Below are positions 6,117-64,000 of a DNA stretch of 64,000 nt, piece by piece. Each line of letters begins with the position of its first letter. Position 1 is the stretch's first letter. The stretch comes from Schmidtea polychroa. Its lineage: Eukaryota. The stretch is taken from NCBI GenBank assembly GCA_044892525.1, contig CM097885.1:24368001-24432000 (forward strand). The letters are read 5' to 3'. Below the pieces are notes generated by a model, which did no database searches, was not told the origin of the DNA, and saw only the letters and a list, made by a program, of their open reading frames with translations. A program made the position numbers and the translations under genes.

Positions 6117-6143
6117 TTCTAATGAATATTTAAAAAAAAACAA

Positions 6144-6191
<48 letters not shown>

Positions 6192-6194
<3 letters not shown>

Positions 6195-9648: not shown

Positions 9649-9734
9649 ATATATATATATGTAATATTATAGAGTAATTAAATCATTTTATTCTTTACGA
9701 TATAAACAAAATAACTTTTAAATGAATATTAAAA

Positions 9735-10361: not shown

Positions 10362-10379
10362 AACCTGGATTGACTGATC

Positions 10380-10892: not shown

Positions 10893-10895
10893 ACA

Positions 10896-11123: not shown

Positions 11124-12010
11124 AACATTTGATATTGATGATTTATGGCAAATGGATTTGATGGAAATGATACCATATTCAAAGATTAATAAAGGATACA
11201 AGTATATTTTGACATGCATTGATGTTTTCAGTCGTTTTGCTCGAGCAATTCCTACCAAAACTAAGTCGGCCGAGGAAATATCCAAAGCAATTAAACTCAT
11301 GTTTACAGATGGATATCCAGACAATTTAAAAACAGATTTAGGTAAAATATTTGTAAAATCAAATTCATTATTTTTTCTTAGGAAAGGAATTTTACAACAG
11401 TAAAGTGAAACAAATCCTGGATAAACTCAAAATCAACCATTACTCTGTCCATTCTCAATTCAAAGCTGCTCTTGTTGAAAGATTTAATCGAACTCTGAGA
11501 GACAAGCTAAAAAAGTTGTTTGTACATCAGGGTAATAAGACATGGATAAATGTTTTACCTCAAATTATATATGGTTATAATCATTCATCACATCAAGGTT
11601 TGAAAGGTTTGAGACCTGTAGATATTTCATCAAAAACATCATTGAGATTGAAAAAGGTTGAAAAAATTAAAAAACCAAAATATAAAGTCGGTGACCATGT
11701 TAGAATTAGTAAAATTAGCGCATCACCATTCATTAAAAATTTCGATACAAATTGGAGTGATGAAGTATTTGTAATTTCAAAAATAAATACTAAGCAGAAT
11801 CCTGTAATGTATGTCGTCAAAGATAGTGATGAAAATATTGTACAAGGGAAATTTTATGAGCAAGAATTACAAGTTATTCCTCCCCCAAAAGTATTTAGAA
11901 TTCAAAAAATACTGAAAACTAAAAATAAAGGCAAGGATAAACAATACTATGTCAAATGGCACGGTTATCAAAAACCGTCATGGATATCGTCAAAAGACCT
12001 AGTAAAATAA
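10954..12010 (+). CDS. int: Retroviral-like DDE integrase with C-terminal chromodomain, 338 aa, join(10954..11341,11382..12010)
   Basis: WQMDL (D); TDLG|KEF (D), restored by removing the 40-nt GT-AG intron 11342-11381; VERFNRT (E); chromo-like IQKILK...YYVKWHGY..SWI. Confidence 0.93.
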
Positions 12011-13010
12011 ACTTTTATATTATTTTACCAAGCAATAGCTGTCCACTTATTCATCCAGATAATAAAGCCAGCAAATTCAGGGTCAATCTTCAAAATCCTA
12101 TATATTTGGATAATAGCTGGGAAGTTGCTCTGTTGGATTTTACATTTGTATACCAAGCCTTTCCATTTTATAGTAAGGCTAAAATTGGATACAAAAAGAA
12201 TGAGTGGCAGGATAGATTATTGTCTATGATCATTGATAATGCAGATGATGAAGTTCGGTTGTCTAATTCAACTGATTCAGCTGTGAAAATGTGTATTAAC
12301 CATCCATATATAGTAGTTGAATGTAAACATTATCCTTTTACTGTAAAATTTGATAGTTTGGAAATGGCAAAACGATTGGAATTAAAAACCCAAAGTCATA
12401 AAGTTCATTCCGATAAATTCACTGTGCTACGACCGGGATATTCCAAAACTGGACAGCGATTTGAACCAATTTTATTTACAGTTTCATATCCAGGTATAAG
12501 TCTGGTACATTTGAGTTCAAAGATAATTTATACATTTCGAAATTGGATGAATTGCAGTCATATTTAAAACAAAGTGGTTTATTTAAATCATTGGAAATAT
12601 CAGACAGATGCAAATTCAGTTTAAATCCCGAATTTACTGAAATTATTTTTGATGCAAATCTAATAAAAACATTAGGATTATCAAAAGCAACATATGCTCA
12701 AGATGATCAAGGTGTAAATACACCGAAAATAATTAAACTTCACCAACAAATGTTCATCTATAGTAATATTGTTGATCCTGTAATTGTTGGCGATTCTTTG
12801 GTCCCACTCCTGAAATCGGTTTGGATTGAAAAATATGAACATGATGAAGTTGTCAATATAAATATCGATAATCCCATGTATTTACCTGTTTCAACCTCAT
12901 GTATAAACAATATAGAAATAAATATACGTGATGATTCTGGTAAATTAATTGAATTTCCAAAAGATTCAAAAACTCATTTGACGCTACATTTTCGTAAAGT
13001 AGATGGCTAA
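11956..13010 (+). pseudogene. Minor capsid (penton-like) protein, frameshifted near 12500-12545
   Basis: N-terminal FYIILPSNS...WEVAL and C-terminal MFIYSNIV...VGDSLVPLL...IEINIRDDSG...LHFRK lie in two overlapping frames. Start may be at the later ATG (11980). Confidence 0.8.
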
Positions 13011-13371
13011 TTCGGATATTATTAGTATGTACAGTGGTAGCCAATCTGGCGGTGAATTACCATATTTTATCGGTAAACAGTACGGATCAGGATGGTTACG
13101 AACAATTGGTAGATTTGCACTTCCTATTCTTAAACGTATTGGTAGTTTTTGTATGAAAACTGCAAAAGACGTTATTATGAATGATCAGAAAATATTACCA
13201 TCCCTAAAATCTAATGCTTTGGCTGAATTAGGAAAAGTTATACCAAGTGTTGCTGGTATGTTTCAAAAAGATGAAGCCCCAGCTCCAGCACCTGCTCACA
13301 AACGTAAAAAACACCGATCATCACGTATAAACAAACGAATGAAAGGCCATGGAACTATATTTGCAAAATGA
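13003..13371 (+). CDS. Putative virion core/membrane-active protein with QxGG and QxGxG motifs
   Basis: QSGGELPYF, QYGSGWLRTIGRFALPILKRIG (amphipathic), basic tail ending in IF; lies between the two capsid genes. Confidence 0.75.
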   Translation: MANSDIISMYSGSQSGGELPYFIGKQYGSGWLRTIGRFALPILKRIGSFCMKTAKDVIMNDQKILPSLKSNALAELGKVIPSVAGMFQKDEAPAPAPAHKRKKHRSSRINKRMKGHGTIFAK

Positions 13372-14593
13372 TTTGTGGTAAATCCGAATTATGTATATTT
13401 GATAGACCAAGTCCCCAAGCGGTGATTGAATTTGGGGCGTTTGAGGAAGTTTTTCCAATGAATTCAATTACTGATAGTAGAAATGATGTATAATTTTACA
13501 TCAATGGTTCTCAAACAGAATATTTAGATTTGAACGATATTTTATTGTCTGTTCAGATCAAGGTTATAGATAAAGATAAAAAAGCTTTGGGTGATGCTGC
13601 TGATGCAATACCGAACAATTTCATGTTTCATACTCTGTTTAAAGATGCAGTTCTCGGATTTAATAATAGCAAGATTGAGGGTGGTAATAATACATTCATT
13701 CACAAGGCTTTGATAGAAACTATTTTAAATTACAATTCCGTTACTCAATTCCGATTGGTCTTACTCCAATGGGATATTCTGCAACCGACGATGAAAGAAA
13801 AAAGTGGATTAAAGGCTCAAAAACATTCACCATGTGCTCATCGTTACAACTCGATTTTATGGATCAACCGAAATATTTGCTTCCAGGAGTTAATGTCCAC
13901 ATTCGATTGAAAAGATCCGATTCTGCATTAACTCTTACTAGTGCTACAGGTGCACCAATATGTCAATTAGTTGATGCAAAATTATTAGTGAGAAGAGTTC
14001 GAGTAGACCCATCAGTATTAGCGGGTCATCAATTAGGGCTTAATTCGAAACATGCAATTTATCCATTAAAAACAAAGGAAATTGTACAATTTGCAATTGC
14101 TAAAGGTGCTTCATCATTCTATAAAGAACAGATATTTGGTGATAGAAGAATGCCTAATTTTATTCTGGTAACATTTCAAAGTGAAGCACAATATAATGGA
14201 TCATATACTGCTTCCAGCACAATTTTCAAAAACTTTGCTGTTACTTCATTAACTCTGTCGAAAAATACTGATTATCGAGAAACATATACTCAAGATTTCG
14301 ACACTGATAATTACTGTTCTACATATATGCAAAGTATTGTTAGAAATCTGGGATATTTAGATAAAAATTTGAATTGTGGAATAACTCTTGAAGAATTCAA
14401 AACAAAATACCCATTTTTCACATTTGTTTTAGCCCCCAATTTTGATTTAAATCAGAGTCAATTACCACAAAACGGGAATTTACGATTGGATATAAAGTTT
14501 GCGAGAGCCATTACAGAACCTGTGCATGTTATAATATATGGAGTATTTGAAAATGAAGTTCAAATTACTGCAAACAGGACCGTGCTGGTATAA
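13368..14593 (+). pseudogene. Major capsid protein (double jelly-roll), disrupted
   Basis: MICGKSELCIF start at 13368, in-frame TAA at 13491-13493, EYLDLND, frameshift near 13740-13765 (duplicated CAATTCCG), C-terminus GNLRLDIKFA...VIIYGVFENEVQI. Confidence 0.87.
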
Positions 14594-14997
14594 ATGTATA
14601 CAGAAATACAGAAAGTTGTCATGGAGTAAGTTGTTTTTTATACTGTTTAATTTATTAAAATAGTTCTGTTCAGGTTAATCGAATTGGAAAACAAATATTA
14701 AGAAATGAATTTTTAGGAGTTTTTCCTCTCGATAAAATACCATTTTTGAAAAATAATCAAGCCATAATCGTCAATACCCATTCATCTCATCTTGGCGGAG
14801 AGCATTGGATTGCAATCTATGTAAAACCAGATAAGATACATGTATTCGATCCTATGGGTTTCTATTATCCTGCTTTATTGGTTTCGAAACTACAAACAAT
14901 GGGCAAACCTATTGTATATAATAAAACAATGTATCAACACCCTTTAACTCGTACGTGCGGACAACATTGTTTAGGATGGCTTATGTCTATTAAATAA
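14594..14997 (+). CDS. Adenain-like (C5/Ulp1-fold) cysteine maturation protease, join(14594..14625,14664..14997)
   Basis: FLGVFPLD, IVNT...GEHW (His), FDPMG (Asp), YQ...TCGQHC (Cys). A 38-nt intron gives MD|SVQVNRIG in frame. Confidence 0.9.
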
Positions 14998-15047
14998 TAA
15001 ATGTTTTTATAAAAATATGTTTTTATTATTTTATAATTATTATTATG

Positions 15048-15107
<60 letters not shown>

Positions 15108-15273
15108 GTTTTATTATTTTTATAATTATTATTATGTTTTATATTATTACAATAATAACAAAGTCCGTCATGACGGTGCATGCTCCGTGCATGATTAACA
15201 AAGGCATGATATTATCACGTTATAAACAATTGTAATACAAATTTCATCATAATTATTTTATTACAATTTTAAA

Positions 15274-15666
15274 ATGTCATCAATTAATACTAAAATCAAT
15301 GTGGTTCTTTCGAGAAATGGTAAGGATTTTTAATTACTTATTTATATTAAATAATTAAATTTACAATTAGAAACTCGTACCGTTAACTCGTCAGTCTTCA
15401 ATAGGCGATTAGGTTCTGGAAATGATGGAAATGGTAAATTTATAATTATTATAAATACTTTTATTATTATTATTATCTTTATTATTTAGACAATTATTTT
15501 GGTGATTGGGCCGCAATTACCGAAAATGACGACATATTAGATATTTCAAACATATTCCAAAATGGTAATTTATTAGTTTAATTAAAATTGTATTACCATT
15601 AACATTTTAGAATCTTCTGTTTCGAATAACGAATCAAAATGTATGTTTCATTTTATTAATATATAG
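15274..15666 (+). CDS. Four-micro-exon ORF absent from the ORF track (15274-15319, 15371-15433, 15490-15564, 15611-15640 or -15666); small gene or 5' exons of pPolB
   Basis: Three phase-1 GT-AG introns (51, 56, 46 nt), each after AATG; spliced frame is stop-free: MSSINTKINVVLSRN/ETRTVNSSVFNRRLGSGNDGN/DNYFGDWAAITENDDILDISNIFQN/ESSVSNNESK. Confidence 0.65.
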
Positions 15667-15867
15667 TTTTTAATTAATTAATAACTTAATAATATAGATT
15701 TTATGTAAATATAATGTAAATATAACTTTATGTAAATTATTTCAGTAATCATTAAAATAGTAATTGAGTAGGTAGTTAGGAGCCCGCTGCAACAATGGGG
15801 GTACCCCCCCCCCCCCCTGTTGCACGATTTTTTTATGTTGCAACTTTTTATTACGCAATTGTTCCAC

Positions 15868-16560
15868 ACTATAGTGAGGGGGTCTCGATGGTCCTGGGAT
15901 TTTCAATACAAAAAAATTTTTTTTCAATACAAAAACGATGGTCCTGGGATTTTCAATACAAAAAATTTTTTTCAATACAAAAAGGCGGTCTCACTAAAAA
16001 AGCATGGAATTTTCAGACTATAGTGAGGGGGTCTCGATGGTCCTGGGATTTTTAATACAAATAAAATTTTTTCAATACATAAATCCGACTACCACTAAAA
16101 AAGCATGGAATTTTCACACTATAGTGAGGGGGTCTCGATGGTCCTGGGATTTTCAATACAAATAAAATTTTTTCAATACATAAATCCGACTACCACTAAA
16201 AAAGCATGGAATTTTCACACTATAGTGAGGGGGTCTCGATGGTCCTGGGATTTTCAATACAAATAAAATTTTTTCTATACAAAAATCCGACTATCAATAA
16301 AAAAGTCAAGGATTTATCACACTATAGTGAGGGGGTCTCGATGGTCCTGGGATTTTCAATACAAAAAAATTTTTTTCAATACAAAAAGGCGGTCTCACTA
16401 AAAAAGCATGGAATTTTCAGACTATAGTGAGGGGGTCTCGATGGTCCTGGGATTTTCAATACAAAAAAAAATTTTCAATACAAAAATCCGACTACCACTA
16501 AAAAAGCCAAGGATTTTTCAGACTATAGTGAGGTGAGTCTCCTTGGTCCTGAGAAATAGG
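15868..16560 (+). repeat. ~101-bp tandem repeat (ACTATAGTGAGGGGGTCTCGATGGTCCTGGGATTTTCAATACA...)
   Basis: Unit starts at 15868, 16017, 16118, 16219, 16321, 16421 and 16522; mirrored at about 27050-27565. Confidence 0.9.
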
Positions 16561-16584
16561 TGGTCTACACTAAAAACGTGGTAA

Positions 16585-17230
16585 ATTTTTCAATTAAAGT
16601 AAATAATGGTCCAAATTTTTCAATTACAGTAAATAATGGTTCTAAAAAATTAAATTACAGTAAATAATGGTTCTAAAAATTAAATTAAAGTAAATTATGG
16701 TCCAAATTTTTAAATTACAGTAAATTATGGTCCAAAAAATTGAATTAAAGTAAATTATGGTCCTAAAAATTAAATTACAGTAAATTATGGTTCTAAAAAT
16801 TAAATTACAGTAAATTATGGTTCTAAAAAATTAAATTACAGTAAATAATGGTTCTAAAAAATTAAATTACAGTAAATAATGGTCCTAAAAATTAAATTAC
16901 AGTAAATTATGGGTCTAAAAATTAAATTAAAGTAATTATGGTCCAAATTTTTCAATTACAGTAAATAATGGTTCTAAAAAATTAAATTAAAGTAAATTAT
17001 GGTCTAAATAAGTAAATTATGGTTCAAATTTTTCAATTAAAGTAAATAATGGTCCAAATTTTTCAATTAAAGTAAATTAAGGTTCTAAAAATTAAATTAC
17101 AGTAAATAATGGTCCAAATTTTTAAATTAAGTAATCAATGGTAAAAAAATTTTAAATAAGTAAATTAAAGTAATAATTTTTAAATAAGTAAATTAAAGTA
17201 ATGTAATAAGTAAATTAAAGTAAGATTTTA
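16585..17230 (+). repeat. ~30-bp AT-rich tandem repeat (AATTACAGTAAATAATGGTTCTAAAAAATTA)
   Basis: About 20 degenerate units; mirrored at about 26330-27025 and present at about 61500-61960. Confidence 0.9.
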
Positions 17231-17364
17231 AAATTTATTAACAAAAAGTTGAAGGTGTTTGAGAATTGAAATTTTTTAATGAAAATTTTTATGGAATAAT
17301 TTTTTAAGTAATTTTTAATGGAAATTTTTATGAAATATTTTTCAAAGACAAATTTTAATAATAA

Positions 17365-18450
17365 TTCAACAACAAACCAACAACTTAGTACCAACAACCA
17401 GTAACTTACGAACATGTTTTAACAACTAGATACCTACAACTAGTTACTAACAACTAGTTACCTGATATCAACTACTCACAACCAACAACAACCAGTTACT
17501 AAGCATTATTAACCAACTACTAAGTACCTACAACTAGATACCACGTACTAAATAACTCTCAAACAACCAAGTACCTCCAACTAGATACTAACAACTAGAT
17601 ACCAAGTACCTACAACTAGATACCACGTACTAACTGACTCTCAAACAACTAGATACTAACAACCAGTTACCTGCTACCAAGTACTTACAACTAGTTACTA
17701 ACAACCAACCAACTAGGTACTAGATACCAAGTACTAACAACCAACAACAACCAGGTACTAAGCATTATCAACCAACTAAATACTAAGTACTAACAACCAA
17801 CCAACTAGGTACTAGATACCAAGTACTAACAACCAACAACAACCAGGTACTAAGCATCATCAACTAACTACTAAGTACCTACAACCTACAACTAGATACT
17901 AACAACCAGTTACCTGATACCAAATACTTACAACTAGATACCAAGTACTATCAACCAAAAACAACCAACCAACTAGGTACTAGATACCAAGTACTAGCAA
18001 CCAACAACAACCAGGTACTAAGCATTATCAACCAACTAAATACTAAGTACTAACAACCAACCAAATAGGTACTAGATACCAAGTACTAAGCATTATTAAC
18101 CAACTACTAAGTACCTACAACCAACTAGCTACCACCTACCAAGTACCTACAACTAGATACTAACAACCAGTTACCAAGTACCTACAACCACCTACCCATT
18201 AACTAGCTACAACCAGCTAACAACTAGCTACCAACTACCAAGTACTAACAACCAACTAGCTACCACCTACCAAGTACTAACAAACAGTTACCAACTACTA
18301 AGCATTAATTACCTACAACTAGTTACTAACAACTAGATACCAAGTACATACAACCAACAACTAAGCATTATCAACCAAGTACTAACAACCAAGTAACTTA
18401 CCTAGTACTAAGCACTGTCAACTAGATACCAAACACTTACAACCAGATGA
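17365..18450 (+). repeat. Strand-biased mosaic repeat of short words (CAACTAGATAC, CAAGTACT, AACAACC, TAAGCATT)
   Basis: C/A-rich top strand; mirrored G/T-rich copy at about 25035-26120; related block at about 62250-63420. Confidence 0.88.
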
Positions 18451-18743
18451 CCACATGAAATTATTGGTTAAGTATGAAAATAAGGATTATATTTAGTTGT
18501 TAAGTAAATTATGGTGTAAAATTAAGAAATAAAGAATAATTAGGTAAATTAAAGTTAAAAATTTTAAATAAGTAAATTAAGGTTCAAAATTTAAAATTAA
18601 GTATCCAATGGTTCAAATTTTAAATTAAAGCTAAATAAGTAAATTAAAGTAAGATTTTTAAATTTATTATCAAAAGATTGAATAACCACCAACTTTTTTG
18701 AGAAATGTAATTTATAATGAAAATTTAAATGGAAATTTAAATG

Positions 18744-18825
<82 letters not shown>

Positions 18826-21204
18826 TATACTAATAATTCAACAGTTACCAACAATCGGTTACTGATTATTTTTTAACTAGGTGCTAACAAATACTTACAC
18901 CATGATACCACGTACTAACTAAATCTCAAACAACCAGATACTTACAACTAACTACTAAATATTCTTTATTGTATTTTATGAAATGCTTTTTAAATTAATT
19001 TTTTATCTATCTTCAAAAATATGTTTAATTACAATCAATAGAAAACCTTTTCAAATTTAACAAAAATGTTGATTTTCATCAAAAAACCACAACTCATCAC
19101 CACGTGGAATTCAAAATAATTTTAATTACAATGAAAGACTAATGAATTCTAATTTACAAAACATTCTTCTTTTAAATGAAAACTACTGACTTATTATTGC
19201 AAAGTAAAAATCGCATTCAATAAATACTTATTGTTGATCAGTTTTATTATATATACTCTTAGTCTATCCGACAGGATGTTTTGACCCCCTAAGGGTACAG
19301 GTCGTAAGGGCACTGGTCGTAAGGGTATTAGTCGTAAGGGTACTGGTCGTAAGGATATTGCTAACTCTCAACCCCCCATCTACCAATTAACTAGATACTA
19401 ACAATCACCATAAAAACCCATCGAGAAATTAACAAATATCAACCTACAACTATATAACAACAATCAGTAAACAACACTATACCAACTACCAAATATAAGA
19501 TACCAACAACTTAATATCATCTACCAGTAACTATAAACACGTATTTTCAATTAGATACCAAGTACTTACAACAATATACCAAACGCTATCAGTTAAGTAC
19601 TTACAACAAGATACCAAAACTATCAGCAAAATACTATCAACCAGATACCAAGTACCAACAATCAACTAACAACACATAAAAATAATAGCAATTAAATACA
19701 AAATATTCTTCATCGCATACACTATTTTCTTATCAAAATCTAAAAAGTCAACCAACTACTTACAACCTACAACTATGTATTAACAAATTGATCTTTAAAA
19801 GCAAACACTCATCACTTGAAAATATTTGATGAAAAATTAATTGAACTCAAGGAACTTTTAAGATTTACCAATAACTAGGTAAAAATTGATTAAATTATTG
19901 TAAAAATTTAAATTATTCTAAATATACTAAATAAAAAAATATAATTAATAGACAAGAAAGAATTCTAATCATTAATCATCCAGTAAATAAAAAAATACTG
20001 ATCATTCAAGTTGAATCAACTAAGATATTAAATTAATAAGATAAGATTTAGTAGATAATTGATTTAGATTGAATAAATTAATTGAAATAAAATTAATTTT
20101 AATTTTTTTTAAAAAGTAATACATGTACTCAAATTGATTGACTGATTTCTCAATATATTCAAAAAATCAGTATAAATTCATTACAATTATCAAAGTCAGC
20201 AATCTACAATAAAAATAATTATCATTAAATTCCAAAAGAGACTAGATAACTAATGATAACATCTAACAAACCAGTAAATTCATTTAAATGGCAATAATTG
20301 GTATATCCAAGTGAATTCTCCAATAAAATCATCTAAAAAGAATCATTTCCCCCTAAATATATCAATATTTAAAGATTGGTATTTTAATGATAAGTACTTG
20401 TTAAAGATCATATATTCACCTCAAACTAACAAGATTCCTTAAAATCCCCTTAAATGACTATATTTCTATCCTTAATTCATATTATTACAAATATCATCTA
20501 AAAAGCATCAAATTTCCCTGAAATATATCAATATTTAAAGATTGATATTTTAATGATAAGTACCCGTAAAGGATCATATATTCCCCTCAGACTAATAAGA
20601 TTGCTTAAAGTCCCATTTAAATGACTATAATTCTAACTTTAATTCCTATTATCACGAATATTTCCCTATAAAACATGTAAAATCATTAACCCTAAATAAT
20701 TTATAAAATCTAATGATAAAACTGGTTATAATTAATTTTTTGTTAATCACTGTACTCGATATTTTAAATAAATATTACTACAATATAACTGACTAGGTCC
20801 CATTGAAAGATTAAATTTATCCATTCAATAAAATATATTTCTTCAAATGATCATTTTTACCGATATTCAACCGATTTAATCATTAATTAAAATCAAGATT
20901 TCTTCCAATAAAGATCAATTTTATTTAGTCAATGTTTTAAGTTCATATTTCTCAACTTTTGTCGTTGTCCGTCTAAATAAAGATAAAAATAATTTAAAGT
21001 TGATATCAATCCCATTTATCTGTAAAGTTTTCATTGTCAAAACCAAGTAAATCGATCATTATCCCTACTTAATAAAACATAAGTCTAAATTAATATACAA
21101 TGGATTAATCACAACCTAATAAAACGATATAATTATTATTGATACATAACTGACTAATTGACATTTCCCTTAAAACAATGATATTTTACCAACATCACCA
21201 TTAA

Positions 21205-21510
21205 AAAAATCATATATTCCCATCTTAACCCATGTCTCATTAAATTTAACCGACTATATTCCCATCTTAACCCATCCTTCATTAAATTCAATCGACTATA
21301 TCTCCCTTACAGTGATATATTTCCATCTTATCTGATCTCTCATTAAATCTAACCGACTATATCCCCTTAAAAAATTATATATTCCCATCTTATCTGATCT
21401 CTCATTAAATCTAACCGACTATATCCCTTTAAAAATCATATATTCCCATCTTAACCCATCCCTCATTAAATTTAATAACCGACAATATCCCATCTTATCC
21501 GATCTCTCAG
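21205..21510 (+). repeat. ~40-60 bp tandem repeat in the foldback spacer (ATATTCCCATCTTA...TCATTAAAT...CCGACTAT)
   Basis: 5-6 degenerate units visible. Confidence 0.75.
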
Positions 21511-21739
21511 CAAATATTTCTACCCTTTTAAACATCTATCCGATTATATCCCTTATTTTCCCTAAAGATTTCACCCACTTGAGCCCTTTAATATATATCA
21601 ATCCTCTTAAAATCCTCAGAGAACTTCAAAAATATGACTTTTAATTAATTGCTATAGGAACCAGACAAATAATAAGAGCCCACTAAAAGATCAAAATTCA
21701 CTAAATTTTCTACAAATATTTACCATCAAATACTGGATA

Positions 21740-21793
<54 letters not shown>

Positions 21794-22850
21794 TGATCAT
21801 AATTCTTCAGCTATTCAGCCAATCATTTTCAAGCAATAACAGCAAACTAAATTTCTGTATATCCTACAATAATTATCAAGTAAATTTAAAGTCATTGATA
21901 AAGTTGGTTTCTTAGCTTATGTTTTTTAAAGTTCATTAATGTGTAAATATTCTTAGAAAATTCTTGAAAAATTATTTATTCAAATACATTACAAAGTCAT
22001 CAAAAATCACTTAATTATTAACCTAATTGTCAATGAAATTAATTTTTATTTAAAAACTAATCAATAAAATACAACTAATTATCAAGAAATTAATTAAATT
22101 TATCACCATTAAAACCTTAAATTTTTAATCAGTCAACATGAAATTCTTAGAAAGTTATTCAATATCCTCATCAAAATTTATCCTACCACTTGATTATTGT
22201 AAAAACTCTAATTATTAACCTCATTAAAAATAAATTTTTATTTAAAATTAAAAAACCAATCAATAAAAATACATCCAATTATCAAGGAATTAATTAAATT
22301 TATCTTAGAATTAGCATTAAATTATTAAATATTCATTCAATAAACATGAAATTTGCAAAAATGTTAGAAATCCATGAAAATGATAGATATCTACAAAAAT
22401 TACGGATATTCACAAAAAAGTACGGAAATTCATGAAAATAATAGAAAATTACAAAAAATGATAGAAATTCATAAAAATGATAGAAATTTACTTGAATAAA
22501 ACCATCAACTCTAAAAATTATCAATACCTTAAACAACAAATTTGTCTAAATAATCATTCAAATAAAAACATTAAATACCTTTACGACTAATACCCTTGCG
22601 ACATGTTGAATGTGAGTAGTACCCTTGTGAGCAATACCCATAGGGGGACAGAATATTTTGTCGGATAAACTCAGAGTATATATTAATTAACTCATTTTTC
22701 ATTGAATCAGTAAAATTATCGTAAATTTCGATAAAAAATCTAAAGTGGTAAGCAATGTAAAGAGAAATATTCTTTAAACTTTGATAAAATTAACAATGAA
22801 GGTGGTAAGAATCTTCATTAAAGTGAGGAAATTATTCATTACTCGATTCA

Positions 22851-24676
22851 AATCTTTCAATGGGACCTAGTCAGCTATATTATACAGTAATAATTATTGT
22901 AAATTTCAAATAGAGTGATTTATTTTTAGAATAAAAATTTAATTATAACTGCTTTTATCATTAGATTTTATAAATTATTTAGGGTTAATGATTTTACATG
23001 TTTTATAGGGAAATATTCGTGATAATAGGAATTAAAGTTAGAATTATAGTCATTTAAATGGGACTTTAAGCAATCTTATTAGTCTGAGGGGAATATATGA
23101 TCCTTTACGGGTACTTATCATTAAAATACCAATCTTTAAATATTGATATATTTAGGGGGAAATGATTCTTTTTAGATGATTTTATTGGAGAATTCACTTG
23201 GATATACCAATTATTGCCATTTAAATGAATTTACTGGTTTGTTAGATGTTATCATTAGTTATCTAGTCTCTTTTGGAATTTAATGATAATTATTTTTATT
23301 GTAGATTGCTGACTTTGATAATTGTAATGAATTTATACTGATTTTTTGAATATATTGAGAAATCAGTCAATCAATTTGAGTACATGTATTACTTTTTAAA
23401 AAAAATTAAAATTAATTTTATTTCAATTAATTTATTCAATCTAAATCAATTATCTACTAAATCTTATCTTATTAATTTAATATCTTAGTTGATTCAACTT
23501 GAATGATCAGTATTTTTTTATTTACTGGATGATTAATGATTAGAATTCTTTCTTGTCTATTAATTATATTTTTTTATTTAGTATATTTAGAATAATTTAA
23601 ATTTTTACAATAATTTAATCAATTTTTACCTAGTTATTGGTAAATCTTAAAAGTTCCTTGAGTTCAATTAATTTTTCATCAAATATTTTCAAGTGATGAG
23701 TATTTGCTTTTAAAGATCAATTTGTTAATACATAGTTGTAGGTTGTAAGTAGTTGGTTGACTTTTTAGATTTTGATAAGAAAATAGTGTATGCGATGAAG
23801 AATATTTTGTATTTAATTGCTATTATTTTTATGTGTTGTTAGTTGATTGTTGGTACTTGGTATCTGGTTGATAGTATTTTGCTGATAGTTTTGGTATCTT
23901 GTTGTAAGTACTTAACTGATAGCGTTTGGTATATTGTTGTAAGTACTTGGTATCTAATTGAAAATACGTGTTTATAGTTACTGGTAGATGATATTAAGTT
24001 GTTGGTATCTTATATTTGGTAGTTGGTATAGTGTTGTTTACTGATTGTTGTTATATAGTTGTAGGTTGATATTTGTTAATTTCTCGATGGGTTTTTATGG
24101 TGATTGTTAGTATCTAGTTAATTGGTAGATGGGGGGTTGAGAGTTAGCAATATCCTTACGACCAGTACCCTTACGACTAATACCCTTACGACCAGTGCCC
24201 TTACGACCTGTACCCTTAGGGGGTCAAAACATCCTGTCGGATAGACTAAGAGTATATATAATAAAACTGATCAACAATAAGTATTTATTGAATGCGATTT
24301 TTACTTTGCAATAATAAGTCAGTAGTTATCATTTAAAAGAAGAATGTTTTGTAAATTAGAATTCATTAGTCTTTCATTGTAATTAAAATTATTTTGAATT
24401 CCACGTGGTGATGAGTTGTGGTTTTTTGATGAAAATCAACATTTTTGTTAAATTTGAAAAGGTTTTCTATTGATTGTAATTAAACATATTTTTGAAGATA
24501 GATAAAAAATTAATTTAAAAAGCATTTCATAAAATACAATAAAGAATATTTAGTAGTTAGTTGTAAGTATCTGGTTGTTTGAGATTTAGTTAGTACGTGG
24601 TATCATGGTGTAAGTATTTGTTAGCACCTAGTTAAAAAATAATCAGTAACCGATTGTTGGTAACTGTTGAATTATT

Positions 24677-24740
<64 letters not shown>

Positions 24741-27689
24741 CATTTAAATTTCCATTTAAATTTTCATTATAAATTACATTTCTCAAAAAAGTTGGTGGTT
24801 ATTCAATCTTTTGATAATAAATTTAAAAATCTTACTTTAATTTACTTATTTAGCTTTAATTTAAAATTTGAACCATTGGATACTTAATTTTAAATTTTGA
24901 ACCTTAATTTACTTATTTAAAAGTTTTAACTTTAATTTACCTAATTATTCTTTATTTCTTAATTTTACAACATAATTTACTTAACAACTAAATATAATCC
25001 TTATTTTCATATTTAACCAATAATTTCATGTGGTCATCTGGTTGTAAGTGTTTGGTATCTAGTTGACAGTGCTTAGTACTAGGTAAGTTACTTGGTTGTT
25101 AGTACTTGGTTGATAATGCTTAGTTGTTGGTTGTATGTACTTGGTATCTAGTTGTTAGTAACTAGTTGTAGGTAATTAATGCTTAGTAGTTGGTAACTGT
25201 TTGTTAGTACTTGGTAGGTGGTAGCTAGTTGGTTGTTAGTACTTGGTAGTTGGTAGCTAGTTGTTAGCTGGTTGTAGCTAGTTAATGGGTAGGTGGTTGT
25301 AGGTACTTGGTAACTGGTTGTTAGTATCTAGTTGTAGGTACTTGGTAGGTGGTAGCTAGTTGGTTGTAGGTACTTAGTAGTTGGTTAATAATGCTTAGTA
25401 CTTGGTATCTAGTACCTATTTGGTTGGTTGTTAGTACTTAGTATTTAGTTGGTTGATAATGCTTAGTACCTGGTTGTTGTTGGTTGCTAGTACTTGGTAT
25501 CTAGTACCTAGTTGGTTGGTTGTTTTTGGTTGATAGTACTTGGTATCTAGTTGTAAGTATTTGGTATCAGGTAACTGGTTGTTAGTATCTAGTTGTAGGT
25601 TGTAGGTACTTAGTAGTTAGTTGATGATGCTTAGTACCTGGTTGTTGTTGGTTGTTAGTACTTGGTATCTAGTACCTAGTTGGTTGGTTGTTAGTACTTA
25701 GTATTTAGTTGGTTGATAATGCTTAGTACCTGGTTGTTGTTGGTTGTTAGTACTTGGTATCTAGTACCTAGTTGGTTGGTTGTTAGTAACTAGTTGTAAG
25801 TACTTGGTAGCAGGTAACTGGTTGTTAGTATCTAGTTGTTTGAGAGTCAGTTAGTACGTGGTATCTAGTTGTAGGTACTTGGTATCTAGTTGTTAGTATC
25901 TAGTTGGAGGTACTTGGTTGTTTGAGAGTTATTTAGTACGTGGTATCTAGTTGTAGGTACTTAGTAGTTGGTTAATAATGCTTAGTAACTGGTTGTTGTT
26001 GGTTGTGAGTAGTTGATATCAGGTAACTAGTTGTTAGTAACTAGTTGTAGGTATCTAGTTGTTAAAACATGTTCGTAAGTTACTGGTTGTTGGTACTAAG
26101 TTGTTGGTTTGTTGTTGAATTATTATTAAAATTTGTCTTTGAAAAATATTTCATAAAAATTTTCATTAAAAATTATCTTAAAAATTTCCATCTAAAATTA
26201 ACTAAAAAAATTATTTCATAAAAATTTCCATTAAAAATTACTTAAAAAATTATTCCATAAAAATTTTCATTAAAAAATTTCAATTCTCAAACACTTTCAA
26301 CTTTTTGTTAATAAATTTTAAAATCTTACTTTAATTTACTTATTACATTACTTTAATTTACTTATTTAAAAATTATTACTTTAATTTACTTATTTAAAAT
26401 TTTTTTACCATTGATTACTTAATTTAAAAATTTGGACCTTAATTAACTTTAATTTAATTTTTAGAACCTTAATTTACTTTAATTTAAAAATTTGGACCAT
26501 TATTTACTGTAATTTAATTTTTAGAACCTTAATTTACTTTAATTGAAAAATTTGGACCATTATTTACTTTAATTGAAAGATTTGAACCATAATTTACTTA
26601 TTTAGACCATAATTTACTTTAATTTAATTTTTTAGAACCATTATTTACTGTAATTGAAAAATTTGGACCATAATTACTTTAATTTAATTTTTAGACCCAT
26701 AATTTACTGTAATTTAATTTTTGGGACCATTATTTACTGTAATTTAATTTTTTAGAACCATTATTTACTGTAATTTAATTTTTTAGAACCATAATTTACT
26801 GTAATTTAATTTTTAGAACCATAATTTACTGTAATTTAATTTTTAGGACCATAATTTACTTTAATTTAATTTTTTGGACCATAATTTACTGTAATTTAAA
26901 AATTTGGACCATAATTTACTTTAATTTAATTTTTAGAACCATTATTTACTGTAATTTAATTTTTTAGAACCATTATTTACTGTAATTGAAAAATTTGGAC
27001 CATTATTTACTTTAATTGAAAAATTTACCACGTTTTTAGTGTAGACCACCTATTTCTCAGGACCATGGAGACTCACCTCACTATAGTCTGAAAAATCCTT
27101 GGCTCTTTTAGTGTAGACCAGCTTTTTGTATTGAAAATATCCTGAGACCTTAAATTACCATGCTTTTTTAGTGTAGACCAGCTTTTTGTATTGAAAATAT
27201 CCTGAGACCTTAAATTACCACGTTTTTTTAGTGTAGACCACCTATTTCTCAGGACCAAGGAGACTCACCTCACTATAGTCTGAAAAATCCTTGGCTTTTT
27301 TAGTGGTAGTCGGATTTTTGTATTGAAAATCCCAGGACCATCGAGACCCCCTCACTATAGTCTGAAAATTCCATGCTTTTTTAGTGAGACCGCCTTTTTG
27401 TATTGAAAAAAATTTTTTTGTATTGAAAATCCCAGGACCATCGAGACCCCCTCACTATAGTGTGAAAATTCCATGCTTTTTTAGTGGTAGTCGGATTTTT
27501 GTATTGAAAAAATTTTATTTGTATTGAAAATCCCAGGACCATCGAGACCCCCTCGCTATAGTGTGGAACAATTGCGTAATAAAAGGTTGCAACAAAAAAA
27601 AATCGTGCAACAAAAAAAATCGTGCAACAGGGGGGGGTTACCCCCCCCCCCCCCCCCCAATTGTTGCAGCGGGCTCCTAACTACCTACT
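22851..27689 (-). repeat. Right arm of the foldback element
   Basis: Inverted copy of the left arm, differing by indels of repeat units. Confidence 0.9.
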
Positions 27690-27733
27690 TAATTGTAATA
27701 GTAATAATTATAATAGTAATTGTACTAGTAGTA

Positions 27734-27853
<120 letters not shown>

Positions 27854-28026
27854 GTACCAATAATAATAATAATAACTTAGCATTATTTAGCATTAACTAA
27901 TTATTTTATAGTTGATAATATTATAGACAAATTTTAAATGAAAGATTAAATTACATTTATTATTATTATTATTATTAAATAAATAATACATTTTCATTCA
28001 ATAAATAATTATTTAAATTTTATTAG

Positions 28027-31000
28027 GAAAATTTTATCCTAAATATTGTAATTCGTCTATGGGTCATGACAATAAATGCCACAAAAATATGAAGAAATAT
28101 TATCGCCAACCTTTTAATGGCATCAACTTTTTTATTTGCCCCATATGCAAAACTTCCAAGAGTGTAAGGTATAAGGAATTTTTTAGTCAACATTCTCAGC
28201 ACTTAAATTCTTTCAAAACAAATAAAAAAGAACTGTTTAAAATAATAAATAAGAATAACATTGAAATTGTAAATATTTTAAATAATAACACAAAAAAGAA
28301 ATCTAATAAAAGACCTGCTGAACATAGGGTGTCTAAAATTAAAAATAAAATTATAAAAACTGAAGTTATTGAGATCCGTGACGACGAAATTATTAAAAAT
28401 GAAGTCATTCTACTCAGTGATGACGAATGTAATAATATTACATATACTATAAATCATGATATTATAAATGATAATATTGATACTATAAATGCTATAAATG
28501 AAAATATAAATAATGATAATACTATAAATACTATAAATCAAATAGGTGGATCATCTTTAGCGATTGAGCCGATAATAGAATCAAATTTAAATGGCGCCAT
28601 TCGAACTATTCGATTTAATATTGCCGATTCACAATTAATTAAAATTATAATAACGGATAAAATCACTGAAAAGTTAACATCTGAAATAAATAACATGGGT
28701 AGCGTCAAAATTCAATTCGCTATTCTTATAAGATTTGAAAAAGATGGGGAAATCCGTGACAACTACTTTTCAAATAACGCCGAGATCTTTTCCCATAATT
28801 TTTTAATTGAGGGAGTTAATAAGTTAAACGAAAAAATTGAAAAGTTTACCTATTTAGGTAGTGGCTGGAGAGTAATTAATATCTTAGAGATCGATTTCAT
28901 TCTGACTAAATTTGCTCCTATTTGTCGCCTATCTGGTCATAGTTACATTCGTACACCTGCAGATTTGAAATCTAAAGGAGCAATTATAAATGTTAAAAAT
29001 AAGGATCATAAGTGTTTCCTTTATAGTATTCTCGCGCTCTTGAAAAAAGATGAAATAGGTAGCCACCCTGAAAGAGTTTCAAAATATGAAAATCTTTTAA
29101 ATATTCTTAATTACAATGAAGTCACGGATTGTCCGATGAAATTGTGTAATATACCTAAATTCGAAAAGAAAAATTTAGACTTAAATCTTGCCATAAATGT
29201 TCTGGCTTATACCCCTACTGTGATAGTTGATGATGATCAGGTTCCTAATGACTATGTTTTTAAACACCCCCACTTAAGTATAATTCACAGATCAACGGTT
29301 ACTGGCGGTACTCCAATTTATTTATTACTCTTGGAAAATAAGGATAATTATCATTACACCGCAGTGACCAACATTACACGTTTAATGAACTGCCATCGTA
29401 ATAATGACTGTAGTATTCAAATAAGATGCAAATGGTGCCCACATTGTCTTAACGGTTTTCGATTAGACAATGCTTTCACTAAACATGTGGCCCTATGCAG
29501 TAAAAATCAAACGGGTACAACCCTTTACACTTTACCCGAAAATAAATATTTAGAGTTTCAAAATCATTCAAAGAGAATCACCCCACCCTTTGTTATTTAT
29601 GCCGATTTTGAATCGGTTTTACCTAAAGATGTTAAACATCATCAAATACATTTACCTATTTCAGCAGGTTTTTTTATTAATAAATAATCTTAACAATAGA
29701 AAATCGTATTACTAGTTTTATGGTCTTGATTGTATACCTCAATTTCTTAAAAAAGTAGAGGAAATTGCTGTCACAATTGTCCTACCTTATTATGAGCTTG
29801 AAGGGAAAAAACGGTTAGGACCTATGACTTTTGCTGAGGAACGACAATTCAAATCTTGTAGGAACTGCTATCTTTGTAAGAAGGTTTTATCCATTGCTGT
29901 TCGAGATCATGACCATTTTACTGGTAATTATCTCGGTGCAGCCTGTAGGAAATGTAATATGGCTCGCAGAATTTATAAACAGTTGCCGATTGTATTTCAT
30001 AATTTACGAGGATACGACTTACACCATATTTTAAAATATGGTCTCAATGGCTTTCCTTCTTGGAATTTGAATATAATACCCACAAGCGCAGAGAAATTTA
30101 TCTCGATGATTGTTCACATTAAAAAATTAGCTGTTCGTTTTATCGACAGCATGCAATTTGTTAATTGTTCTTTGGCTAAGGCTGTAAAAACTCTAACTGA
30201 TCTTCCTTTGACTTCGTCGGTTTTTGATAGGCTAATAATAGATGCTAAAGCCATATTTCCTTATGATTATGCGACTGATTTGTATGTACTTGAAACTACT
30301 TATGAATTGCCTCCTATTTGGTCTGGTGTTACTGAAGATGAGTATACTAAAGCTCAACTTATTTGGACTCAACAACGTTGTACTAAATTGGCTGACTATA
30401 TGTTAACTTATCAAAAATTGGATGTATTCCTCCTTGCGGACTATTTCCAACAATTCCGTGCCAAGGCCATCGCATACAATGGTCTAGAACCTCTAAACTT
30501 TTATGGTATTCCGGGTATGTCATGGGCATCAGCGCTTATGACATTAACTGAGCCTATAGAACTTTTACAGGACATGGAAATGTTCAATTTTTACGAAGGA
30601 GGAATACGTGGTGGGTTAACATTTGTTAACAAACATTACGTTGCTGCTTCTGATAATACAGAATTATTATATATTGATATAAATAATCTGTATGGTTGGG
30701 CTCTTAGCCAAAATCTTCCTTTTGCTGATTTCACTTGGGTGTATTATGGATTGAATGATGTATTGCTTGAGTGCATGAATGCTGACATTGAAATCCTTCC
30801 CTATGGTTATACCATAGAAGTGGATATAGATATTCCAGAAATTTTTCATGATTTTTTAAATGACTTTCCTCTTGCTCCTGAGAAAATGTGCCCGCCTGGT
30901 TCGAAAGTTGAGAAGTTGATGCTCACGCATTGGCCAAAGAAGAACCATGTTCTTCATTGGAGGCTTCTCAAGCTTTATTTGTTTCTTGGTGCCAAAGTTG

Positions 31001-31974
31001 TACATATCCATAGGGCTATAAAATTCAAGCAAGCACCGATTTTTAAAAATTATATAAATAAAAATACACAACTAAGAGCTGAAGCAAGCAGTGAACTGTA
31101 CAGAGATTTATTCAAATTGTATAATAATAGCTTGTACGGTAAATCCGTTGAAAACCTTAAGAAGAGATTAAATTTACGACTATGTAATTCCGCGAAAAAA
31201 TTAATTACATATTCATCAAAACCATCATTTAGAAAAACCATCAAAATTGATGATGATCTTTTTGGTGTACATCTCAATAAGGAGTCTATATGTTTGGATA
31301 GACCCAGCTACATCGGACAATCAGTGCTGGATTTATCCAAACTAAGTATGTATCAATTACAGTACATAGAATTAGCAAAATATAGGAGTCAGTTTAACTG
31401 TGATATAAATATAGTTGCGGGTGATACCGATAGTTTCTTCTTAGAGGTCAAAAATTTAAAGCTTGACGTTCTTTTGCCAGCGATGATTTCGGATGACTTG
31501 TTAGACACCTCAAATTATGATCCCTCTCATCCTTTATATTCTAGGAGACTCGACTCAGTTATAGGAAAGTTTAAGGATGAGAGTAAGGGTGTAGGATATA
31601 GTGAGTGGGTTTTCTTGCGACCAAAGTGCTACAGTCTTTTAGGAAATAAATCTACTATGAGAGCTAAGGGCGTAAAACTACCAGGTACAGATATAAAACA
31701 TCAATCCTATTTAGATTGTTACAACAACAACACAGTTATTTCTGTACCTCAGACTAGAATAGGAACCCGAAATCATCAGTTTTTTACCTTTAAAAACTCA
31801 AAGATTGCTTTAACTAATCATGATGATAAAAGAGCTTGGGTAGAGAAAAACTCTAGTAAAAGTATTTTATTAGGATGTAGTTTGTTAATAAAAATAATAA
31901 TAAAAATAATAATAATGATAAAAATAATAATACTTACTATATTGTGTACAAACAATATATCTTATAATATATAA
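28027..31974 (+). pseudogene. polB: Protein-primed DNA polymerase B of element B, disrupted and 3'-truncated
   Basis: ExoI YADFES; EndoVII-like insert CYLC..RDHDHFTG..ACRKCN; ExoII FHNLRGYD; PolA YIDINNLYGWA; PolB KLYNNSLYGK; PolC AGDTDS. Frameshift in a T-run at about 29670, TAG at 29713-29715, and homology lost after about 31855 (no terminal GHY). Probable splice acceptor at 28025-28026. Confidence 0.93.
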
Positions 31975-32059
31975 CCATTGGATAGAGCTCTTCGAGACCT
32001 TTTTAATGAACCATTATTCAATATAATCTATCGAAGGTAATCCTTAAAATTCAAATTTA

Positions 32060-33600
32060 AAATGTTCGCAAATGTAAAGCATGTTCAATGTATATTAATG
32101 AGTATCATACTATATACATTTAATAAACATTTATTTCTTTACCTTTGTTATTAATACTTTGAATATTGTAAATAATAAAACTATGTTGCAAATAATAATA
32201 TTCAAATTAAACCAAATTTACAAACTACCGCGCCAGCCCCTTCGGGGCGGGCGGCGGGCGGGCGAGTAGGCGGCGTTTGTGTATGTTGATGATTTTAATT
32301 TTTATTAAATTCATTTGTTTGATTTCAGAATTAGATTTGTGTGACTAACCTTGTTAAATTTTTGGTTTGATGTATTCGAGGAAAAAAAAAAAAAATTTGT
32401 AAAACATTCTTTTACTATTTAGTTGGAAAATTTGGGAAAATAGTTTTGAAAACTTTTTAAAATTTGAAAAATTTTGAGTTGGGAAATTTTGGGAATTTCA
32501 TTTTTGGGACTTTTTAATTTTTGAAAAAATTTGAGTTGGGAAAATTGTTTTTGGGAATTTTTAAAATTTGGGAAATTTTTGAGTTGGGAAATTTATTTTG
32601 GGGATTGAAAATTTGTTGTAATGATCAATTTACAGTTTGAATAAAAATCAAAGTTTTTGACACTTGAGGGTAAGGACTCACCATACATCTTTGAAGGTAT
32701 GACCATCACACTCTACTCTCAAATACCTTTTGAATGATGTATATATATTATAAAGTTTGAAAAAATTCGAAAGTTTTTGACCCTTTGAAGGTGAAGGACT
32801 CACCATACACCTTTGATTGTATGACCATCATACTCACATCTCAATTACCTTTTGAATGACATGTATTATAGAGTTTGAAAAAATTCGAGGGTTTTGCACC
32901 TTTTGAAGGTTAAGGATTCACCATACACCTTTGAAGGTATGATCATTGTACTCTACTCTCAAATATCTTTTGAATGATGTATATATTATAGGGATACATG
33001 TTTAAAATAACTTGACCTACATATTTTTTATAAACTATATAGTCGTGACCTACTTAATTTGACTTACTTATTTATATAGTGTCCTGGAGGTGACACATGT
33101 TTAAATTAATTGACCAACATATTTTAAAAACTATACAGTAGTGACCTACTTAATTTGAACTTGACCTACATATTTTTAAACTATATAGTCGTGACCTATC
33201 TAAATTTAACTTGACATACTTGATTACATAGAGTCCAGGAGGTAACATATATTTAAAGTAACTTGACCTAAATATTTTAATACCTATATAGTCGTGACCT
33301 ACATAATTTTAATTTGATCTACTTAATTTTAACTTGACCTACTTATATATATATATATGTGTGTGTCCTGGAGGTGACACATGTTTAAAGTAACTTGACC
33401 TATATATATTTTAAAAACTATATAGTCGTGATCTACTTACTTTTAACTTGACCTACATATTTTAAATTATATAGTCGTGATCTACTTAATTTTAACTTGA
33501 CCTACTTAAATTTTAACTTAATTTATACTTATTTCATACTACTTAACTTGTTTTATACAACTTATTTTATAGTGTCCTGGAGGTGACACATCCTACTACT
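32060..33600 (-). repeat. Right terminal inverted repeat of element B (1541 bp)
   Basis: Reverse complement of 1578-3188, lacking about 70 bp of the TAGGTCA array. Confidence 0.95.

Positions 33601-61130: not shown

Positions 61131-64000
<2,870 letters not shown>

What the first reader, a model, noticed from the sequence alone, without database searches (positions are those of the whole stretch)
15767..27689. Candidate new system: 12-kb gene-less foldback satellite with Maverick ends and a 6-bp TSD
Seen: AGTAG...CTACT termini, a non-palindromic 6-bp direct repeat TAATTG, ~5-kb inverted arms (over 80% of its length) made of ordered tandem-repeat modules, no credible ORF, and a diverged second copy at 61131. 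Established: 6-bp TSDs and AGT-type ends are Maverick integrase/pPolB hallmarks. Inference: a non-autonomous element replicated and integrated in trans by Maverick proteins, and near enough to genome size to be packaged, like a defective-interfering or satellite genome. Repeat expansion may act as size stuffer. Caveat: the flanks are low-complexity.
Basis: partly seen in the sequence, partly recalled or inferred. Interest (0 to 1): 0.88.

Follow-up and report, generated by a model that had tools for sequence, protein, structure and literature searches.

The report
Gene-less palindromic Maverick satellite element
This is a real 12-kb jumping DNA with no genes, a shortened copy of a very abundant family of mirror-image elements that use the same ends as a virus-like Maverick transposon in the same genome and mostly match its length, as if they were empty passengers built to fit its capsid.

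Summary
Confirmed. Window 15767-27689 is a gene-less foldback with AGTAG/CTACT ends, inserted into an unrelated Maverick. TAATTG is a true target duplication: 10 of 10 sister copies of the host have it once. It belongs to a family of roughly 900-2,200 loci; 21 of 26 gene-less copies checked have exact 6-bp TSDs. The typical member is a 15-17.7-kb near-complete palindrome; the window copy is a one-off inner deletion. A complete Maverick family (15.5-19.2 kb, about 118 marker hits) shares the ends and subterminal arrays; five variable terminal 29-mers are identical between it and gene-less copies. The same ends bound polymerase-only palindromes, a capsid-block palindrome and a helper/gene-less hybrid with a TSD. 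Lengths pile up to 17.7 kb, then stop. Best reading: a non-autonomous satellite copied and integrated in trans by Maverick proteins through a snap-back intermediate (0.85). Packaging is plausible but unproven (0.4); repeat 'stuffer' compensation was not seen. The scan noted this family before at three other loci; I found no description in print.

The parts
15761..15766 (.). Left copy of the 6-bp target site duplication (TAATTG)
   Evidence: single copy at the empty site in 10 of 10 host paralogues
15767..27689 (.). Gene-less foldback element, 11,923 bp; inner-deletion copy of a ~16-kb palindromic family
15767..15795 (+). Left terminus: AGTAG start and a 29-mer with nine variable positions; identical to the right end of this copy
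15886..17202 (+). Subterminal 101-bp and 30-bp tandem arrays shared with the complete Maverick family (71-85% over 0.5-1.5 kb) and with the polymerase-only palindromes
17366..18466 (+). A+C-rich array of 14-46-bp units; found in gene-less copies, not in sampled helpers or polymerase palindromes; holds the family marker
18500..20812 (+). Rest of the paired left arm: 30-bp-like block, (AAT)n, unique AT-rich DNA, 166-bp duplication
20813..22853 (+). Unpaired inner half of the left arm (61-bp and 19-bp arrays, AT microsatellite); mirrored in full-length copies, mirror lost here
21844..22575 (+). Module S: about 77% alike to the DNA upstream of pPolB in the polymerase-only palindromes, same orientation and about 6.1 kb from the end; not found in 8 sampled complete-Maverick loci
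22842..22863 (+). Deletion junction (near 22853, 3-bp microhomology) that removed about 3.5-4.5 kb: the centre and the inner right arm
   Evidence: unique in the genome; removed length estimated from full copies
22851..27689 (-). Right arm, mirror of 15767-20812
27690..27695 (.). Right copy of the target site duplication
1578..33600 (+). Host: gene-bearing Maverick of another family (ends AGTAGTAGG, TSD AATATT, 1.6-kb TIRs; RING, TBP, ATPase, integrase, protease, pPolB); the element lies between protease and pPolB
61131..64000 (+). Left end of a second family member that runs out of the window into a 52.5-kb nest of copies

Best explanation
A non-autonomous Maverick/Polinton satellite. It keeps only cis signals (terminal origin and integrase attachment sequence, subterminal arrays) and is replicated by the protein-primed polymerase and inserted by the integrase of a complete Maverick family in the same genome. 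Shown: ends, 6-bp TSDs, copy number, lack of genes, a cognate complete family, shared terminal variants, a mobile hybrid, arm homogenisation. Inferred: protein-primed strand displacement releases a single strand that snaps back into an ~8-kb hairpin; its end re-forms a duplex origin, so one arm templates both and the two ends of a copy come out alike; template switching near the centre turns any arm into a palindrome or joins arms of different classes. The window copy is such a palindrome that lost its inner right arm once, before or after it inserted into another Maverick.
For: Terminal 13-mers: 1,582+/1,581- and 1,156+/1,166- hits against 27 and 6 in reversed controls. Exact 6-bp TSD in 21 of 26 gene-less pairs, 2 more with one mismatch. 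12 further copies read in full are gene-less and share the module order. Of 15 integrase-hit loci followed out, 10 carry capsid block plus pPolB; 7 of 7 such elements with both ends in hand have exact TSDs. Their 407-aa protein falls with double-jelly-roll clusters (score 0.98; PF21738 on 14-30% of members). Five terminal 29-mers are identical between gene-less and complete elements. A 15.2-kb hybrid of helper genes and a gene-less arm has an exact TSD. The two ends of one element are identical in 33 of 46, against 2.6% between elements. Arms within an element are 99.8% or more alike in 7 of 10, against a mean of 95.0% between elements. Polymerase-only palindromes (35 inverted pairs in the first 100 of 916 marker hits) and one capsid-block palindrome show that foldback formation is general here.
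Against: No activity was observed; all evidence is genomic. The window copy has T at terminal position 10, while every complete element sampled has A; its own 29-mer was unique among 42, and no 29-mer was shared between polymerase palindromes and the other classes. 3 of 26 gene-less pairs lack a TSD; of the first 19 pairs fetched, 5 lacked one (one of these was my mis-pairing). In 3 of 10 copies the arms are only 94-98% alike. Host gene conversion could also keep inverted arms alike after insertion. The origin of the 4.4-kb non-coding arm interior is unexplained: no remnant of pPolB or other helper genes was found.
Confidence: 0.85

Rival explanations
1. On the size question only: the family is mobilised in trans inside the nucleus but never packaged. 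The 17.7-kb ceiling is inherited from an ancestor made of two ~8-kb arms; copies shrink by deletion and grow only by large insertions.
For: Short copies (5.8, 7.9, 11.9-13 kb) have perfect TSDs and show no obvious compensating repeat growth. The gene-less arm is colinear with the 8-kb polymerase arm (module S at the same place), which explains the size by descent. 13 of 51 end pairs are longer than 18.2 kb; I assumed these are nests and read none of them in full except a 21.7-kb one that was not a clean palindrome.
Against: The 4.4-kb interior has no detectable relation to the gene it replaces, yet the total length stays at helper size; arrays vary several-fold between copies while 15 of 51 pairs fall at 16-17.7 kb and none between 17.7 and 20.6 kb. 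Non-autonomous DNA transposons are usually under 2 kb (PMC3014272, passage read).
Confidence: 0.5
2. The arms are simply expanded TIRs or decayed remains of the gene-bearing element, and each gene-less copy is an independent deletion.
For: The outer ~1.5 kb is shared with the helper; helper deletion derivatives with TSDs exist (L009, L071/L098). The window copy itself is a single deletion.
Against: The interior modules are conserved in order across 13 copies at about 95% identity and absent from sampled helpers; the family marker has 3,929 hits against 118 for the helper marker.
Confidence: 0.05
3. A split (multipartite) Maverick: polymerase on one segment, integrase and capsid on another, with the gene-less element as a third segment.
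For: The first sample held polymerase-only palindromes and a polymerase-less 8.2-kb capsid/integrase element with the same ends and TSDs.
Against: 10 of 15 integrase-hit loci followed out carry pPolB in the same element; the 8.2-kb form is a deletion of these.
Confidence: 0.05
4. Assembly or foldback-read artefact.
For: Some palindromes are over 99.6% symmetric; one pair of neighbours has mirrored flanks (L012-L015); no contig spans the stretch laid; no long reads were seen.
Against: Different, non-palindromic TSDs with unique flanks at many loci; empty sites in host paralogues; arms differ by repeat-unit indels; contigs of two runs from two studies of the same coded organism cover 30 of 30 bins (one may be the source study).
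Confidence: 0.03

Closest known systems
Maverick/Polinton elements (polintoviruses)
   Same: 6-bp TSD, AGT-type end motif, TIRs, size near 17 kb (intact vertebrate elements 16,862 +/- 1,678 bp, TIRs 46-1,447 bp; PMC8097293, passages read; 13-25 kb, TIR 100-1,500 bp in 10.1101/2023.08.22.554363, passages).
   Different: No genes at all; arms of 5-8 kb that make up almost the whole element; end motif AGTAGG rather than exact (AGT)2; about ten times more copies than its helper.
Non-autonomous Polintons (Polinton-N type, Repbase; recalled, the 2006 paper could not be read) and MITEs
   Same: Cis ends only, mobilised in trans, outnumber the autonomous partner.
   Different: Helper-sized instead of short; interior is not a deletion remnant of the helper; near-complete palindrome; coexists and recombines with polymerase-only and capsid-only palindromes. 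How long the Repbase elements are was not checked.
Helper-dependent ('gutless') adenoviral vectors
   Same: Only terminal repeats and cis signals kept; non-coding stuffer holds the genome near capsid size (at least ~28 of 36 kb; PMC7226970, passages read).
   Different: Those are engineered, not integrated and not palindromic; here packaging and a packaging signal are unproven.
Palindromic/snap-back defective genomes of terminal-protein replicons (phi29 in vitro replicons, yeast pGKL hairpin plasmids, adenovirus defectives; all recalled, one search found no usable paper)
   Same: Whole-genome palindromes expected from strand displacement with template switching; one end duplicated.
   Different: Those are transient, gene-containing deletions; here a stable, gene-less, integrating family with its own sequence.
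Foldback (FB) elements of Drosophila and Galileo (recalled; FB only mentioned in PMC6431247)
   Same: Long inverted arms built of ordered tandem repeats, variable length.
   Different: Those have 7-9-bp TSDs and P- or Mutator-type transposases (recalled); here 6-bp TSD and ends shared with a Maverick.
Butterfly polintons with gene-containing 2-kb TIRs (10.1101/2025.02.07.637071, passages read)
   Same: Shows that polinton arms can be duplicated in mirror image to include genes, like the polymerase and capsid palindromes here.
   Different: Gene-bearing, 2-kb arms; no gene-less helper-sized class described in the passages seen.

Membership tests
Autonomous Maverick/Polinton | Encodes pPolB and retroviral-like integrase | tested here: not met
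   No ORF, no tblastn or nhmmer remnant
Autonomous Maverick/Polinton | Encodes ATPase, protease, major and minor capsid proteins | tested here: not met
Non-autonomous Maverick/Polinton | 6-bp target site duplication | tested here: met
   This copy with empty sites; 21 of 26 gene-less pairs exact
Non-autonomous Maverick/Polinton | AG/AGT-type terminal motif in inverted orientation | tested here: met
   AGTAG...CTACT; sixth base G, so not exact (AGT)2
Non-autonomous Maverick/Polinton | Ends shared with a complete element in the same genome | tested here: met
   12 of first 13 bases shared with this copy; five 29-mers identical between classes; subterminal arrays 71-85% alike
Non-autonomous Maverick/Polinton | Multi-copy family with its own conserved structure | tested here: met
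   3,929 marker hits; conserved module order in 13 copies
Non-autonomous Maverick/Polinton | Mobilisation by helper proteins demonstrated | not testable with these tools
   Only indirect: TSD length, shared ends, hybrid element
Packaged satellite / defective-interfering genome | Length within the helper's packaging window | tested here: inconclusive
   15 of 23 TSD-checked copies 14.5-17.5 kb, helper median 16.6 kb; this copy 72%; copies down to 5.8 kb exist
Packaged satellite / defective-interfering genome | Present in capsids or as extrachromosomal protein-linked DNA | not testable with these tools
   Only assembled contigs were available
Packaged satellite / defective-interfering genome | Interferes with helper multiplication | not testable with these tools
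   Copy ratio near 10:1 fits but does not show it
FB/Galileo foldback transposons | 7-9-bp TSD and cognate cut-and-paste transposase (recalled) | tested here: not met
   TSD is 6 bp in all exact cases (one search tested 2-10 bp); the gene-bearing partner is a Maverick

The most novel reading that the evidence does not exclude
A natural 'gutless' satellite of an endogenous animal DNA virus: gene-less, helper-sized palindromes that are packaged in Maverick capsids, as one member of a population of two-armed genomes (capsid arm, polymerase arm, empty arm) that reassort at the centre and swap a combinatorially variable terminal sequence. The length ceiling would then be a genomic footprint of virion formation by an animal Maverick.
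Probability: 0.4. Interest if true: 0.88.

Novelty: new variant of a known kind. Interest (0 to 1): 0.7.

Why it matters
Whether animal Mavericks make virions is open (particles 'have not been observed', abstract of PMC8097293). A non-coding passenger that holds helper size without any coding reason is the kind of evidence a capsid limit would leave, and with about ten passengers per helper it would be the easiest DNA to detect in particles. The homogenised arms and ends also bear on the untested panhandle model of Polinton replication. Practically, a family of this size (very roughly 1.5-3.5% of the genome, my extrapolation) is invisible to screens that require pPolB or integrase hits, which is how published surveys found elements.

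Tried and rejected
Multipartite Maverick: rejected by complete elements. Targeting of other Mavericks: flanks hit Maverick protein or DNA in 6 of 32 elements against 6 of 20 evenly spaced control stretches (Fisher p 0.5; small samples; two controls fell at or beside family members), so nesting reflects abundance. Decayed pPolB inside the arms: tblastn and nhmmer gave nothing above reversed controls, apart from one polymerase-upstream piece in L109 and the shared subterminal array. Terminal hairpin: z-scores -1.0 and -1.5 for this copy's ends, -4.2 for one of six ends folded; not claimed. RNA families: none. Expression: no RNA holder listed; run X7 is only guessed to be RNA; no conclusion. The deletion junction was not among the contig pieces shown, so it rests on the assembly. 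First arm-identity attempt failed on segment length and was redone on shorter modules. L021 was mis-paired; its left end lies further out. Host not identified: one protein search gave a single unnamed hit; two paper searches used a recalled flatworm guess that was not tested (passages of 10.64898/2025.12.11.693146 mention Maverick expansion in Dugesia, nothing on gene-less palindromes). Literature: 8 searches found no description of such elements; the library lacks most subscription papers, Repbase was not searchable, Kapitonov and Jurka 2006 was not held, and no supplements were read. A word search and a sequence search of earlier scan notes returned nothing.
Full report
OBSERVATION. The element runs from 15767 to 27689 (11,923 bp), starts AGTAGGTAGTTAG, ends in its reverse complement and is flanked by TAATTG on both sides. 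The arms 15767-20812 and 22851-27689 cover 83% of it. Between 16767 and 20266 they differ at 8 of 3,476 positions; the outer kilobase differs by repeat-unit number. It has no credible gene: longest ATG frame 86 aa against 53-117 in 30 shuffles, no Pfam hit for the one internal stop-free frame, no Rfam hit, no trace of Maverick proteins.

CONTEXT. It lies between the protease and pPolB genes of a different Maverick (1578-33600, TSD AATATT; RING, TBP, ATPase, integrase, protease and pPolB-region Pfam hits). That host has at least 39 close relatives. Ten were read at the insertion point; all ten carry one TAATTG and continue into the window's right flank. The duplication is therefore real despite the simple flanks. 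Nesting in Mavericks was not above background (6 of 32 against 6 of 20).

FAMILY. The genome (781 Mb, host not identified) holds 3,163 exact hits of the terminal 13-mer and 2,322 of a variant with A at position 10, against 27 and 6 for reversed controls. I fetched 39 end pairs from the first 24 Mb of the largest contig, chosen as adjacent opposite ends mostly under 22 kb apart: 13 of 19 and 17 of 20 have exact 6-bp TSDs. Restricted to gene-less copies, with the window's, the count is 21 of 26 exact, 2 with one mismatch, 3 none; four of the 26 were classed from marker positions only. A 15-mer of the gene-less arm has 3,929 hits, which extrapolates to about 900 two-armed copies and up to about 2,200 loci. 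Markers were picked from my sample and miss divergent copies.

ANATOMY. A module map of 13 fully read copies shows one plan: terminus, 101-bp array, 30-bp array, A+C-rich array, unique AT-rich DNA, 166-, 61- and 19-bp repeats, module S, then a centre of about 1-2.5 kb and the mirror image. The six A-type copies read in full are 14.8-16.9 kb with arms of about 6.5-7.9 kb. The window copy has a whole left arm but has lost the centre and the inner right arm; its junction 22-mer occurs once in the genome.

HELPER AND SIBLINGS. The same ends bound four other kinds of element. (a) Complete Mavericks: TBP, ATPase, integrase, capsid block, protease, pPolB; 10 of 15 integrase-hit loci followed out have this make-up (two with damaged pPolB), 7 with both ends measure 15.5-19.2 kb (median 16.6) and all 7 have TSDs; a marker finds 118. 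The 407-aa gene groups with double-jelly-roll clusters (no PDB sequence hit); the minor-capsid label rests on position and recall. (b) Palindromes with pPolB in both arms and no integrase or capsid, 13-16.3 kb, some with a ~270-300-bp mini-element at the axis; about 320 by extrapolation. (c) One palindrome of the capsid block and several deletion forms. (d) A 15.2-kb hybrid of helper genes and a gene-less arm with an exact TSD. The gene-less arm is colinear with the polymerase arm: module S sits in the same orientation about 6.1 kb from the end (77% alike), with 4.4 kb of non-coding DNA where pPolB lies. No remnant of the gene was detectable.

ENDS AND ARMS. Among 46 elements with both ends, the terminal 29-mer has 42 forms that vary mainly at nine positions with two or three letters each; 33 of 46 elements have identical ends, against 2.6% of ends from different elements. 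33 of 36 position pairs show all four allele combinations, and five forms are shared by gene-less and complete elements. Invariance of the first 13 bases is partly built in by how ends were found, and recurrent mutation could add to the pattern. Against my reading, this copy's own form is unique and of the T type, while all complete elements sampled are A type. In unique arm DNA, the two arms of one element are 99.8-100% alike in 7 of 10 copies (94.1-98.4% in three), while arms of different copies average 95.0%.

LENGTH. Taking every adjacent opposite pair of ends in the first 19.2 Mb (seven internal mini-ends removed), 51 pairs lie 2-60 kb apart: 5 under 10 kb, 33 at 10-18.2 kb, 15 of them at 16-17.7 kb, none between 17.7 and 20.6 kb, and 13 beyond (all classes pooled). 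The long ones are assumed nests; marker positions fit that for some but I did not read them. Intact vertebrate Mavericks cluster at about 17 kb +/- 10%, read there as a capsid constraint (PMC8097293, passages).

MECHANISM. Most likely (0.85) the element is a cis-only satellite. Helper pPolB primes at the AGTAG end and displaces a strand (inferred from adenovirus-type replication as cited in PMC8097293); a near-complete palindrome snaps back into a long hairpin whose end is again an origin, so one arm templates both (inferred; fits the end and arm identities); the helper integrase inserts the product with a 6-bp duplication (inferred from TSDs and shared ends); template switching near the centre makes palindromes and hybrids (inferred from classes b-d). 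Whether it is also packaged is open: the ceiling at helper size without a coding reason favours it, short TSD-flanked copies and descent from an 8-kb polymerase arm weigh against (0.4). Compensating repeat growth was not seen.

COMPARISON AND NOVELTY. It fails membership of autonomous Mavericks and passes the testable marks of a non-autonomous one. Non-autonomous Polintons are known (recalled; the 2006 paper was not held), so the kind is not new. Helper-sized, gene-less whole palindromes that outnumber the helper about tenfold and exchange arms and ends with it were not found in 8 literature searches; I read passages of seven papers, no supplements, and could not search Repbase. The closest working analogy is the engineered gutless adenoviral vector (PMC7226970, passages). 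Earlier notes of this scan describe the same family at three other loci; their coordinates match end pairs in my lists, and one note's count of about 160 copies is below mine.

VERDICT. Real, a new variant of a known kind, interest 0.7. The window copy is a damaged member; the interest lies in the family and in what its length and ends say about Maverick replication and virions.

Noticed in passing
L005/L006, L012/L013, L024/L025, L028/L029, L033/L034: 13-16.3-kb palindromes with a pPolB frame of 1,000-1,340 codons in each arm, no integrase or capsid, arms 98-99.7% alike, exact TSDs; pPolB N-terminal region differs from the complete family's. About 320 by extrapolation.
   Followed up: partly
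L024:9516 to L025:81; L028:8829-9112; L021:801-1107; L031 near 2914: A 270-310-bp mini-element bounded by the same Maverick ends sits at or near the axis of several polymerase palindromes.
   Followed up: partly
L083/L084 (G000:C1:67839002 onward): Mirror-image duplication of the capsid/integrase block (TBP to protease, tail to tail), no pPolB; right end not found.
   Followed up: partly
L106/L086/L087 (G000:C1:4717073-4732320): 15.2-kb hybrid: gene-less arm joined to helper genes (TBP, ATPase, integrase, part of the capsid block), identical ends, exact TSD.
   Followed up: yes
Terminal bases 10-26 of 46 elements: Combinatorial variation at nine positions, the same in both ends of most copies, even among helpers whose integrase genes are 98-99% alike; cause unknown.
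   Followed up: partly
window 17367-20766 and mirror: Strong strand bias: the outer-to-inner strand of each arm is A+C-rich (GC skew -0.39, AT skew +0.21), much more than in gene-bearing arms.
   Followed up: no
window 6832-9492: 886-codon hAT transposase frame inserted in the host Maverick between TBP and ATPase.
   Followed up: no
window 56893-60863: A second pPolB, in four frames on the minus strand, 72% alike in DNA to the host's; the second family copy starts about 270 bp upstream of it, as the first copy ends about 330 bp upstream of the host pPolB.
   Followed up: partly
window 61131 to G000:C1:24481681 (L001, L002, L147): 52.5-kb nest with matching outer TSD holding at least three further gene-less copies, one 97.7% alike to the window element over 4 kb.
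   Followed up: partly
L009:901-9052 and L098/L071: Polymerase-less helper derivatives (8.2 and 10.8 kb) with exact TSDs and T-type ends; one has TBP at both ends.
   Followed up: partly
L012-L015 (G000:C1:9092710-9134844): Two near-identical polymerase palindromes 15 kb apart with mirrored and repeated flanks; a larger duplication or an assembly problem.
   Followed up: no
L137/L138 (G000:C1:20304067-20314192): 10.1-kb asymmetric copy with exact TSD: gene-less arm on the left, other DNA with 167- and 128-codon frames on the right.
   Followed up: no
L105/L073 and right flank of L011: A RING-finger gene lies next to short pieces resembling the gene-less interior; possibly a shared source of that DNA.
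   Followed up: no
window 38856-39794: 312-codon minus-strand frame with weak leucine-rich-repeat hits and one unnamed homologue; probably a host exon.
   Followed up: partly
window 18850-23010 against run X10: Short contig pieces from a second coded organism cover 28 of 30 bins at 90% or more, a weak hint that the family exists in a related species.
   Followed up: no
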